NCBI GenBank assembly: GCA_049976305.1
Contig: JBMFIM010000017.1
Location: 1-15,548 of the forward strand
Source of the DNA: Candidatus Micrarchaeia archaeon
GTDB taxonomy: Archaea > Micrarchaeota > Micrarchaeia > Micrarchaeales > CABMGC01
Length of the DNA: 15,548 bases
Reading direction: 5' to 3'
This document shows positions 9,001 to 12,000 of the stretch, piece after piece (the stretch's first letter is position 1; every line of letters begins with the position of its first letter). A program made the position numbers.

Positions 9001-12000
9001 CTCCGGAGTGAGCTTGAGCTCCGTCAATAACCTGTCCACCTTATTTACAAACAGAACAGGCTTTGCCTTCTCCTTGAATGCCTGCCTAAGAACTGTTTCT
9101 GTCTGCGGCATTATGCCTTCAACAGGATCTATTACCAATATTACACCGTCTACGGCCCTCATCGACCTAGTTACATGGCCGCTGAAGTCCACGTGGCCTG
9201 GTGTGTCGATTAGGTTTATTATGTAATCCTTTCCGCCGTAGTCGAAAGCAAGGGAGATGTTTGCAGATTTGATTGTAAGCCTCCTTTCCTTTTCGATTTC
9301 GTCGTAGTTGGTGTAAAGTATTTCGCCTGCTACGGTCTTTGATATTATGCCGGCCTTTGCAAGCAGGGCGTCTGTAAGTGTTGTCTTGCCATGATGGACA
9401 TGCGCTATTATTGCTACATTTCTCACCCTTGTTATGTCTTGCATGATCTTTACTACTTCCTCAGCCACATACTCTTTTCTTACCATAATTCTCCACCTTA
9501 TCTTGCGCTTCTTGCAATCCTTTCAATCTCTATTTTCTTCTTTATTGCATAGCTGTTCGGGTCATTGTTTGCAGCAAGAATGAGCTCTTCGCTAAGTGCT
9601 TCCTTGAGCGTCTTCCTGCTCTGGAAGGCGTTTGTCAACGCAGCAAGCGCAATATTTCTTAGGGCAACATCAAGCCTTCTCGCCGCGCTTATCCCTACCG
9701 CGACGTTATAGTTTATGCCTCCGTAGCGTATGCGCGTAGTGTCTTCGATTGGTGCAGAGTTCTGTATTGCGTCAACAAGCACCTGGACGGGATTCTTGCC
9801 TGTCTTCTTTGCAACGTCGTCAAAAGCTTCTTCCACTATTCTCATGAGCTTTAGTTTCTTGCCCTGCAGCCTGCCCTCTGTTCTTATAACTCTGCCGCCT
9901 ATCTTTTGGCCTGTGCCTCCCCTCATCATTTTGTTTATTAGCCTCTCCACTATGTTTGCCTTTGTTACGAAATGCGCCTTGTCTTTTCTCCTCCCAAAGC
10001 TATTCAAATTCTCCTTTGGTGTTAAAACTATATAGTTTGCAAGGCTAATGTCTTCAACCACAACGTCCTTTGTGCTGTATTTTCCAAACAACAGCTGTTC
10101 TTCGCTGCCTATTTCTTCTTTCTTTTGAACCTTCTTGACTCTCTTTGCTTTCTTCTCTACTTCTGCCTCTTTCTTTGCTTCTTCTTGCACCTTCTCTGTT
10201 TTCTCTGCCTCTGCCATTTCATTACCTCTTAGGCTTCTCCTTTCTTCCCTTTACAATTTCGTAAAGGTCTACGCCGTTGACAGCTACTACCCTATATTTT
10301 AGTCCGGGTATGCTGCCCATTTGGCCTCTCTGGGATCCTCCCATGCCTTGTATAAGCACCTCATCGTGCTCCTCAATGAACCCTATGGCGCCATCGTAAG
10401 GCACATATGCACCTACTACCTTTCCGTTCTTTGTAAGCTGCACCCTAACGCATTTTATCTGGCCACTGTGAGGTTGCTTCTGCTGAAGGCTGAACTTCTG
10501 CAAAACAAGCGCCCTTGCCATAGGCACAGTTCCCATTGGGTCATACTTCTGCTTAAGCTTGAAGAACTTTCTCTTCCACCATTTCTTGAGCATCCTTTCC
10601 CTGTGCCTCTTTTTTACAAGCTTAAGAGCAGCAAATTCTCCCTTCGCCAATTAAACACCTAGTATTTTTCGTTAAGTATGTTTGATGTGCCAGGGTCTAT
10701 TATTGCAAGGCTGCTTACGCTGTAAGGTTTGCCGCACACCCTGCCTAGCTCCATAGCGTTGCCGTTGAAGTTTATGACCCTTATGCCTGCAAGCTTGCAG
10801 GCGTGCAGTATGTCGTCAGCCTCTTTCTTTCCTTTGTTTGCCATTACTACTGCCTTTGCCTTGTCTTCTAGTACTGCCTTTAGGGTTTCCTTAAAGCCAA
10901 AGCTCACGCTGCCTGTATCTACTGCCAGCCTCAAATCGCTGTTCAAGTCAGGCATCAAAAAACCTGAGCAAAATATTGCAATAAATTTTGTCAGAATAGG
11001 TTTATAAATCTGCTTCTGAGAAGGCGAGAAGTAAAATCAAGGCGTGTGGATTATAATTTGGTTGCAGCCTGCTGTGTCTATGCCTCCTTTGAATGCAAGC
11101 GTAATATAGCCAATCCAAGGAATTTTGGCGATTATGTAGCCCAGGACCTCATTGCCGTTTGGCGGGTAATTGCCAAATTGTATGTCAAAAGCTTGGTTGT
11201 TGTCGCCTTTTGTAAGAAGGTAGTATTGGTTTCCAACCTTTATGGCAGCCACAAGCCTGTGGACTATGTTGCCAGAGAACGTATCCTGCGGGATTGTGGA
11301 ATAGACAATTATGGGCTCGGTATAGTTGTCGGTAACAGTTGTATTGGCTATTTTGACAGAGTTTGTATAAACAATTTGGTATCTTGTATTGTTTATGAGA
11401 ACGTTGCCTATCGTGTAGGAGTATTTTATGAGGTTTCTTTGCTGGCTTGCGTTTTCAACAAAGCATCTTGCAAAGTTGTAGTGCTCATTTTCATAGGCAT
11501 AGATAGAGAGGCATTTGGTGTTGTACAGGCCTATGCCATACTTCTCTCCAGGCTCTACTATGTATGAGATATTTGATTTGTTGTTGCCAAAGTAGGCGTA
11601 GAATGCAAGGAATTCGTTGCTTATGTTGGCGAGCATGGAGTAATAGGCTTGCGGGCTTACGTTGACTATTGGTATGTGGTTGCTTATCAGGAAAGAGGTC
11701 ATGTTTGATATGTGCTTAAGCACTACAACGTCTCCTATTCTAAGTGTAGGGAGCATGCTGCAGCTGGGCACAACGTCAAGGGGCGAGGATGTGCCGAGGA
11801 GCAAAATTGCTACAATCCAAACTGCAAAAATCACTCCCAGGGTTTCAAGCACCTCGACAGCGGTAGCCCTCAAGCCCAGTACCTTTATATCCCGCTTAGT
11901 CTCAACTATAAGCAATGCTGCAAACACCACAACAAAGGCTATGCTGAATATGTAGTTTTTGGTGAACGCATAGGCTATTATCAGCAGTAAGAGAAGAACG

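What a model noticed while it worked through the whole genome (the two positions that open the first line are those of the whole stretch)
10222..10955. NusA lost order-wide and TFS class-wide: transcription elongation with Spt4/5 only
The nusA slot between eL30 and uS12 is empty (8 bp between the genes) and no NusA is encoded elsewhere; the transcript-cleavage factor TFS is missing as well. NusA is gone from Micrarchaeales specifically, TFS from nearly all Micrarchaeia.
Evidence so far: TIGR01952: 0 of 248 order genomes over the cut-off, one weak hit in a 410-aa frame; 45 of 46 genomes of other orders have it. TFS zinc ribbon PF01096 at 1e-5: 3 of 61 class genomes, 0 of 46 outside the order; TIGR01384 hits only the eS31 zinc finger here. 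Gene order from genes.tsv.
(Added by a program. Inside this text positions count along the whole contig: contig position 1 is position 1 of the stretch shown here. "Call 12" and the like, gene names such as g00115 and contig names such as C1 are that model's own, and its searches are not shown. The text may have been shortened before it was handed on; [...] marks where a part breaks off. The agent that wrote the report below was given it as the finding of a first reader that could run no searches.)

Follow-up and report, generated by a model that had tools for sequence, protein, structure and literature searches.

The report
Archaeal order that lost NusA
A whole order of tiny symbiotic archaea (Micrarchaeales) has deleted nusA, a transcription gene that reviews call universal in archaea; most members, this one included, also lack the proofreading factor TFS, while a minority carry an unusual shortened TFS, so the group is a natural knockout for asking what these factors do.

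Summary
The NusA loss holds up. eL30 and uS12 lie 8 bp apart here and 0-45 bp apart in 50 of 50 order genomes. A NusA profile built from the class finds no archaeal NusA in 248 order genomes; the one hit is a bacterial contaminant. The same profile finds NusA in 61 of 61 genomes of another small-genome DPANN phylum, and 201 of 208 genomes of sister orders have it.

TFS needs correcting. Canonical TFS was not found in 301 class genomes, and this genome has no TFS of any kind. But 40 of 248 order genomes (36 of 129 in one family) carry non-canonical TFS-like genes with the acidic DE tip intact: mostly an 84-aa form with a 13-residue linker, some fused to DUF6879. 'Spt4/5 only' fits about five sixths of the order.

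New: the order's RNA polymerase has altered bridge-helix and trigger-loop residues around the backtracking site. Part of this predates the NusA loss, and general sequence drift in the lineage is as high, so compensation is only a hypothesis. TFS is known to be dispensable in Thermococcus; I found no report of an archaeal NusA loss.

The parts
10659..10955 (-). eL30 (rpl30e), the gene directly upstream of nusA in the other orders of the class
   Evidence: ORF; PF01248 E 6e-15; eL30-nusA-uS12 order in 30 of 30 top NusA loci of other orders
10651..10658 (-). 8-bp spacer where nusA (about 420 bp) lies in other orders; with the eL30 stop it reads as an AGGTG Shine-Dalgarno-like site for uS12; no remnant ORF
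   Evidence: spacer 0-45 bp in 50 of 50 order genomes, best NusA-profile hit in those loci E 0.15
10222..10650 (-). uS12 (rps12), TTG start
   Evidence: PF00164 E 8e-33
9498..10217 (-). uS7, next gene of the cluster
   Evidence: same order in relatives; name from sequence and gene order
7294..9486 (-). EF-2, last gene of the eL30-uS12-uS7-EF2 cluster
   Evidence: same order in relatives; name from sequence and gene order
11037..12056 (-). Gene now upstream of eL30, in the place of rpoA'' (signal-peptidase-like by recalled motifs; no Pfam hit). The RNA polymerase operon lies on another contig, G000:C2:28300-35800

Best explanation
Stepwise loss of accessory elongation factors in a reduced archaeal lineage. 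(1) Shown as 'not found': canonical TFS is missing from all sampled Micrarchaeia, so it was probably lost at or before the root of the class (inferred). (2) Shown: nusA was deleted cleanly from the eL30-nusA-uS12 cluster in all three families of the order; one loss in the order's ancestor is inferred. (3) Shown: Spt4, Spt5, the Rpo4/7 stalk, aCPSF1/FttA and histones remain, and Elf1 is absent, so this genome elongates with Spt4/5 as its only recognised elongation factor. Inferred: the loss is tolerated because archaeal NusA is only two RNA-binding KH domains without the polymerase-binding domain, the S1 function sits in Rpo7, and backtracked complexes are rescued by intrinsic cleavage. (4) Shown: a minority of the order carries TFS-like genes of a non-canonical subfamily (compact 84-88 aa, long about 115 aa, or DUF6879 fused to the C-ribbon) in varied neighbourhoods. 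Inferred (about 60%): these are accessory genes gained after the class-wide loss, and they still act through the polymerase's secondary channel. (5) Shown: bridge helix, trigger loop and the neighbouring Rpo2 loop carry order-specific substitutions. Inferred, weakly: they change backtracking and pausing, either permitted by the factor losses or compensating for them.
For: Slot 0-45 bp in 50 of 50 order genomes, including the basal family f35. 0 of 248 with the class NusA profile, including six single-contig genomes. Same profile positive in 5 of 5 distant archaea and 61 of 61 genomes of 0.5-2.1 Mb from another DPANN phylum; 201 of 208 sister-order genomes positive with TIGR01952. Spt5, aCPSF1 and Rpo4 over cut-off in 5 of 5 order genomes; Spt4-, Rpo7- and TFE-like ORFs read in G000; histones; no Elf1 in 5 of 5. 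TFS-like genes in 40 of 248 order genomes; DE tip in 30 of 30 loci read; PF01096 38.1 bits against cut-off 21; nearest solved relatives RPC10, RPB9, RPA12 and an archaeal C-ribbon. Folded with polymerase fragments: weak support, score 0.53 against best control 0.00, contact agreement at least 67%, partner pLDDT at least 67; the mark was reached by 116 of 157 solved and 2 of 215 mismatched pairs, but at 0.60 or under by only 18 solved pairs and both mismatches, and like complexes are solved, so the pass may be from memory. Trigger-loop T1080 equivalent is V/I/M/L in 50 of 51 order genomes and T in 38 of 39 others; bridge-helix T827 equivalent is K in 51 of 51. T827 and Rpb2 Y769 contact the backtracked nucleotide, and T831A lowers backtrack cleavage (PMC4838855, passages). 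TFS is deletable in T. kodakarensis (PMC10899632, passages).
Against: All absence claims rest on mostly incomplete genome bins (G000: 34 contigs, 93.7%). T827K is also in 8 of 30 NusA-bearing genomes of other orders, 7 of them in the sister clade with T831P too, so it is not tied to NusA loss. Most TFS-less orders keep a near-canonical bridge helix and trigger loop, so TFS loss does not require the changes. Translation proteins of family f1 lose class-conserved columns at 31 of 226 against 87 of 827 for the polymerase: the lineage drifts generally. The basal position of the NusA loss rests on one f35 genome, 82% complete.
Confidence: 0.75

Rival explanations
1. NusA is still present in Micrarchaeales but moved and diverged beyond recognition, or is missing only from the assemblies.
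For: Genomes are mostly incomplete bins; NusA is short and already divergent in some families (E 2.7e-13 in G224); the order is a long branch.
Against: 0 of 248, including six single-contig genomes; the profile reaches other phyla at E 7e-15 to 1e-42; PF13184 rings in 14 of 14 controls and 0 of 5 order genomes; an unfiltered HMMER run over all six-frame ORFs of G000 gives only the uS3-like frame.
Confidence: 0.05
2. The compact TFS is the order's own vertically inherited TFS, kept by some lineages and lost many times, also in each other order; there was no class-wide loss followed by regain.
For: The 12 compact and fused order sequences in the tree group together (93/86 support); the form is common in one family (36 of 129) and in 7 genomes of genus g25; the DE tip is invariant.
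Against: It needs many independent losses, including all 208 other-order genomes; neighbourhoods differ from genome to genome; at least two distinct types occur, both in one genome (G177); the sequences group with non-canonical TFS paralogues, not with the canonical TFS of Ignicoccus or Hadarchaeales.
Confidence: 0.3
3. The polymerase changes are neutral or mildly harmful drift in a fast-evolving symbiont lineage, unrelated to NusA or TFS, as in Nanoarchaeum equitans, which has an odd active site yet keeps TFS.
For: General drift is as high in translation proteins; similar bridge-helix and trigger-loop oddities occur in Nanoarchaeum, Pace- and Woesearchaeota (PMC8204694); T827K and T831P predate the NusA loss.
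Against: Within the polymerase, changes cluster in the four active-centre windows, 21 of 73 conserved columns against 54 of 754 elsewhere (windows chosen after seeing two of them, and kin are not independent). Some new states are fixed (K in 51 of 51), which drift alone would not predict.
Confidence: 0.5
4. The compact and DUF6879-fused proteins are not cleavage factors but repurposed regulators or inhibitors of the polymerase, like TFS4 of Sulfolobales.
For: Linker of 12-13 residues against 35-54 in the full-length relatives measured; patchy, accessory-like spread; fusion to an unrelated domain; only a low RNA signal in one run.
Against: TFS4 lacks the acidic pair (PMC5715097), whereas DE is kept in 30 of 30 here at the canonical spacing.
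Confidence: 0.3

Closest known systems
Methanopyrus kandleri, the only archaeon named as lacking TFS (PMC5715097, PMC7289017)
   Same: An archaeon living without canonical TFS.
   Different: Here the absence covers 301 sampled genomes of a class, and in one order NusA is missing too.
Thermococcus kodakarensis TFS deletion strain (PMC10899632)
   Same: Shows that TFS is dispensable in a histone-bearing archaeon; Micrarchaeales also keep histones.
   Different: A laboratory deletion with NusA and a canonical polymerase intact.
Cyanobacterial RNA polymerase without Gre factors (10.1101/680546)
   Same: A large clade without cleavage factors; lineage-specific bridge-helix and trigger-loop residues raise intrinsic hydrolysis and lower pausing.
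   Different: Bacterial enzyme and different residues; compensation was measured there and is only inferred here.
Nanoarchaeum equitans RNA polymerase (PMC8204694)
   Same: DPANN polymerase with radical bridge-helix (proline) and trigger-loop substitutions that is still active.
   Different: N. equitans keeps TFS, and NusA was found in 61 of 61 genomes of the Pacearchaeota-containing phylum; I did not align the N. equitans residues with these.
Sulfolobales TFS4 and other TFS paralogues (PMC5715097; PDB 7oqy chain Y, 92 aa)
   Same: Short two-ribbon TFS paralogues with patchy spread.
   Different: TFS4 has lysines at the tip and inhibits; the compact Micrarchaeales form keeps Gly-Asp-Glu and has a 13-residue linker.

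Membership tests
Archaeal NusA (TIGR01952), any gene in Micrarchaeales | About 140-aa protein of two KH domains scoring over 74.35 bits | tested here: not met
   0 of 93 order genomes over cut-off; 0 of 248 with class profile A2 apart from a bacterial NusA
Archaeal NusA (TIGR01952), any gene in Micrarchaeales | Position between eL30 and uS12 | tested here: not met
   Spacer 0-45 bp in 50 of 50; occupied in 30 of 30 loci of other orders
Archaeal NusA (TIGR01952), any gene in Micrarchaeales | Tandem KH fold recognisable only by structure | not tested
   No proteome-wide fold search was run
TFS/TFIIS cleavage factors, compact Micrarchaeales protein | N-terminal and C-terminal four-cysteine zinc ribbons | tested here: met
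   Eight invariant Cys in 26 of 26; PF01096 38.1 bits over cut-off 21, PF02150 E 3e-4 under its cut-off; DUF6879 fusions have the C-ribbon only
TFS/TFIIS cleavage factors, compact Micrarchaeales protein | Asp-Glu pair at the hairpin tip, seven residues before the last CxxC | tested here: met
   GDE 29, NDE 1 of 30 loci; aligns with the DE of RPC10 and 1qyp
Canonical archaeal TFS1 (TIGR01384) | Score over 64.75 bits and a linker of about 35-50 residues between the ribbons | tested here: not met
   17-39 bits for six proteins; linker 12-13 in 29 of 30
TFS/TFIIS cleavage factors, compact Micrarchaeales protein | Binds the polymerase through the secondary channel | tested here: inconclusive
   Weak support, 0.53 against best control 0.00; no interface given; may reflect solved like complexes
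TFS/TFIIS cleavage factors, compact Micrarchaeales protein | Stimulates transcript cleavage of backtracked complexes | not testable with these tools
   Needs an in vitro assay
TFS/TFIIS cleavage factors, this window's genome | Any CxxC...DE...CxxC C-ribbon protein | tested here: not met

The most novel reading that the evidence does not exclude
Micrarchaeales run a factor-independent archaeal RNA polymerase. After the class lost TFS, the bridge helix (T827K, T831P) and then the trigger loop and Rpo2 gating loop were rebuilt to avoid or self-rescue backtracking and to ignore pauses. That made NusA useless, which would mean archaeal NusA acts on pausing, and some members later picked up a minimal 84-aa TFS or a DUF6879-coupled TFS ribbon as an accessory factor. 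This would be an archaeal parallel to the cyanobacterial solution.
Probability: 0.25. Interest if true: 0.8.

Novelty: new variant of a known kind. Interest (0 to 1): 0.62.

Why it matters
Reviews state that all archaea encode NusA and that TFS is missing only from M. kandleri (PMC7289017, PMC5715097), and that the function of archaeal NusA is unclear (PMC8116511). An order of 248 genomes without NusA, with a NusA-bearing sister clade that also lacks TFS, is a natural comparison for what NusA does: pausing, termination, rRNA processing or ribosome coupling. A named member with a complete chromosome exists (L266). The compact TFS asks how short a cleavage factor can be, and the fixed substitutions at backtrack-contact residues can be tested at once in recombinant archaeal polymerases.

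Tried and rejected
(a) The weak NusA hits in the order: rejected; uS3-sized frames and one bacterial NusA. (b) PF01096 hits outside the order: the five over cut-off (family f8) read as NrdR/ATP-cone-type ribbons by recalled motif, and lack the TFS layout. The 24 weak A1 hits outside the order are E 1.7e-5 or worse; the six I read are multi-ribbon proteins without DE. Of 13 pattern hits in 12 other-order genomes, none is a two-ribbon TFS. (c) My first idea that the bridge-helix change marks NusA loss: rejected, it is shared with the NusA-bearing sister clade. (d) NADYDGD in place of NADFDGD: seen in 7 of 46 order loci with the motif and in two other-order genomes, so sporadic. (e) TFS loss explained by lack of histones: rejected, histone folds are present. 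(f) Small genome size as the cause of NusA loss: not supported. (g) A faster polymerase rate overall: not seen. (h) Expression of the compact TFS: one 180-base contig inside the gene in RNA run X2, none in X1, X3 or X5; contigs only, DNA carry-over not excluded, so not used as support. (i) Origin of the compact TFS: tree unresolved; named cluster members are Micrarchaeota plus one record labelled as a bacterium; the Atlas gave only DUF6879 for the fusion. (j) The promoter and terminator scan is bacterial-type and uninformative. (k) An IQ-TREE run timed out, so the order of events rests on FastTree. (l) TFS in Iainarchaeota could not be searched: the phylum holds this class only; PMC5715097's supplement marks Iainarchaeum with '?'.

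Full report
Observation. In the window eL30 (10659-10955, minus strand) ends 8 bp before the TTG of uS12 (10222-10650); uS7 and EF-2 follow. The window is contig C17 of a 723-kb, 34-contig genome, 93.7% complete. In other orders of the class nusA fills this slot in 30 of 30 top-scoring loci, with rpoA'' upstream of eL30 in 22 of them. Here the polymerase operon is on another contig, and in the six single-contig order genomes it lies more than 180 kb from uS12.

NusA. TIGR01952 over 301 class genomes gave 182 hits over the cut-off, all among the 208 genomes outside the order; 201 of those 208 are below E 1e-7. The best value among 93 order genomes was 1.6e-4. To allow for divergence I built a profile from 21 NusA proteins of the class, five of them from low-scoring families. 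Over all 248 order genomes it gave 11 hits: ten at E 2.6e-4 or weaker in uS3-sized frames, and one in a 410-aa frame that scores best as bacterial NusA in a 1.7-kb locus of 64% GC. As controls, the same profile found NusA in 5 of 5 distant archaeal genomes and in 61 of 61 genomes of 0.5-2.1 Mb from the phylum of a Pacearchaeota genome. The eL30-uS12 spacer is 0-45 bp in 50 of 50 order loci read: the 30 best uS12 hits plus 20 chosen for spread, out of 110 with a match, covering families f1, f2 and f35. The loss is as well supported as an absence claim on genome bins can be.

TFS. This genome has none: a motif scan of 12,692 six-frame ORFs, PF01096, a custom profile and a DNA pattern all fail. 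Across 301 class genomes PF01096 passed its cut-off in 21. Reading the top 30 loci showed real TFS-like genes only in the order; the five outside are other ribbons. A profile of 12 of them (A1) matched 15 of 93 order genomes at E 4e-10 or better and 0 of 208 others better than 1.7e-5. On the full order it matched 40 of 248: f1 4 of 118 with this genome, f2 36 of 129, f35 0 of 1. A profile-free pattern over 201 genomes recovered the order's genes and no two-ribbon TFS in 129 other-order genomes. TIGR01384 reached its cut-off in 0 of 61 and mostly reported a small ribosomal zinc finger. Three forms occur: compact (84-88 aa, linker 12-13, tip GDE), long (about 115 aa, tip NDE) and a C-ribbon fused behind DUF6879. 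The named record L266, Ca. Micrarchaeum sp. A_DKE, has the compact form. Neighbours differ between genomes. In a C-ribbon tree of 97 rows the order's sequences fall in two or three places apart from the canonical TFS of Ignicoccus and Hadarchaeales, but the tree has 45 columns and cannot prove gain. A complex prediction with the Rpo1 fragments of G216, whose TFS has the same sequence as that of L266, gave weak support only: 0.53 against 0.00, in a range where passes are more often wrong than right unless likely beforehand, and like complexes are solved.

What remains. Spt5, aCPSF1 and Rpo4 pass their cut-offs in 5 of 5 order genomes. Spt4, Rpo7 and TFE were read from G000 by sequence and position, without a family search. 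Histone folds are present; Elf1 was not found in 5 of 5. Five of the six single-contig order genomes lack both NusA and TFS.

The polymerase. Residue numbers are those of yeast Pol II. T827, T831, Y836, Q1078 and N1082 come from PMC4838855 and were placed by the conserved Tyr and Gln; T1080, T1083 and K830 follow by counting; the register of Rpb2 Y769 is recalled. The T1080 position is V, I, M or L in 50 of 51 order genomes (only f35 keeps T) and T in 38 of 39 others. T1083 is T in 19 of 51 against 39 of 39. T827 is K in 51 of 51, and the basic residue at 830 is gone in 51 of 51. Solved archaeal enzymes have the canonical helix. Over four subunit alignments (20 f1+f2 genomes, 19 others), 75 of 827 class-conserved columns are lost: 21 of 73 in bridge helix, trigger loop, gating loop and fork-loop windows, 54 of 754 elsewhere. 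I chose the windows after seeing two of them, and kin are not independent, so the Fisher value is not a fair test. Against a link with NusA: T827K is in 8 of 30 other-order genomes, 7 with T831P, and these seven form the sister clade of the order in a tree with both motifs masked (FastTree support 0.995, 49 rows, arbitrary root). Against a polymerase-specific effect: uS12, uS7, eL30 and part of EF-2 lose 31 of 226 conserved columns in f1, against 87 of 827 for the polymerase. The likely order is TFS loss, bridge-helix change, NusA loss, then trigger-loop and Rpo2 change; the third step rests on one f35 genome.

Mechanism. Archaeal NusA has only the two KH domains, its function is unclear, and Rpo7 is proposed to supply the S1 part (PMC7289017, PMC8116511). 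TFS can be deleted in T. kodakarensis with little cost (PMC10899632). The simplest reading is loss of two non-essential factors, with Spt4/5, the stalk and aCPSF1 carrying elongation and termination (inferred). The bolder reading is compensation in the active centre, as measured for cyanobacteria, where bridge-helix and trigger-loop residues raise hydrolysis 3- to 11-fold and lower pausing (10.1101/680546). N. equitans shows that DPANN polymerases can diverge there while TFS is kept (PMC8204694).

Literature seen. PMC7289017: passages and section 4; Table 1 is held as caption only, and the caption describes a comparison across the three domains. PMC5715097: passages and supplement passages; searching the two supplementary files for 'Micrarchae' gave no hit. 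PMC8204694: parts 1-3 of 5. PMC4838855, PMC8116511, PMC10899632: passages. 10.1101/680546: abstract, sections 9 and 10. PMC5498576 and PMC7414124: passages, no mention of NusA or TFS; three supplementary files of the latter had no hit, but its Supplementary Data 7-10 and Figures 59-63 on information-processing genes were not seen and could show the absence. Searches found no report of NusA loss in Micrarchaeota. The library lacks most subscription journals, and a paper on archaeal NusA paralogues that I recall was not found.

Verdict. The NusA loss is real, order-wide and apparently unreported. Canonical TFS is absent from the sampled class, but the order holds a minority of non-canonical TFS genes. 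The polymerase changes are real and of uncertain cause. Interest 0.62; new variant of a known kind.

Noticed in passing
L036:955-1623 (+), L038:928-1623 (+), P0094, P0117: DUF6879 (PF21806) fused to a TFS C-ribbon with an intact GDE tip; long frames of this kind in about six order genomes.
   Followed up: partly
window 10222-10650; L005-L034, L186-L215: uS12 has QPHSG in 33 of 33 other-order and 30 of 30 f1 sequences, and mostly GSIPG, where I recall PNSA and GDIPG as canonical: a class-wide change at the decoding site.
   Followed up: partly
L341-L344, L346, L348, L350; also L320: The sister clade (f8, f11, f14, f17, f26, f27) has a fused Rpo1 and a bridge helix with proline at the T831 position; G301 (f35) shares both, and G207 has the proline.
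   Followed up: partly
L073:3626-6166 (G000:C2): Catalytic motif reads NADYDGD in place of NADFDGD in this genus and sporadically elsewhere.
   Followed up: partly
L135 (G351:C252): Bacterial NusA at 64% GC inside a Micrarchaeales bin: probable contamination.
   Followed up: yes
L269: A record titled Methanothrix sp. carries a compact TFS and neighbours almost the same as in L266; probably mislabelled.
   Followed up: partly
G000:C1:82290-82832; L046, L056, L060, L063, L064: A family of 180-190-aa zinc-ribbon proteins in the order that gives weak PF01096 hits but lacks the DE tip; next to a histone-fold gene in G000.
   Followed up: no
window 6152-7258 (-): 368-aa protein with an N-terminal AsnC-type helix-turn-helix (under cut-off) directly downstream of EF-2.
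   Followed up: no
window 4407-6132 (+): Small Toprim protein followed by a DnaG-like protein, overlapping genes.
   Followed up: no
G000:C6:20941-22440: A second long aCPSF-like match (440 bits) with one TGA inside the matched stretch.
   Followed up: no
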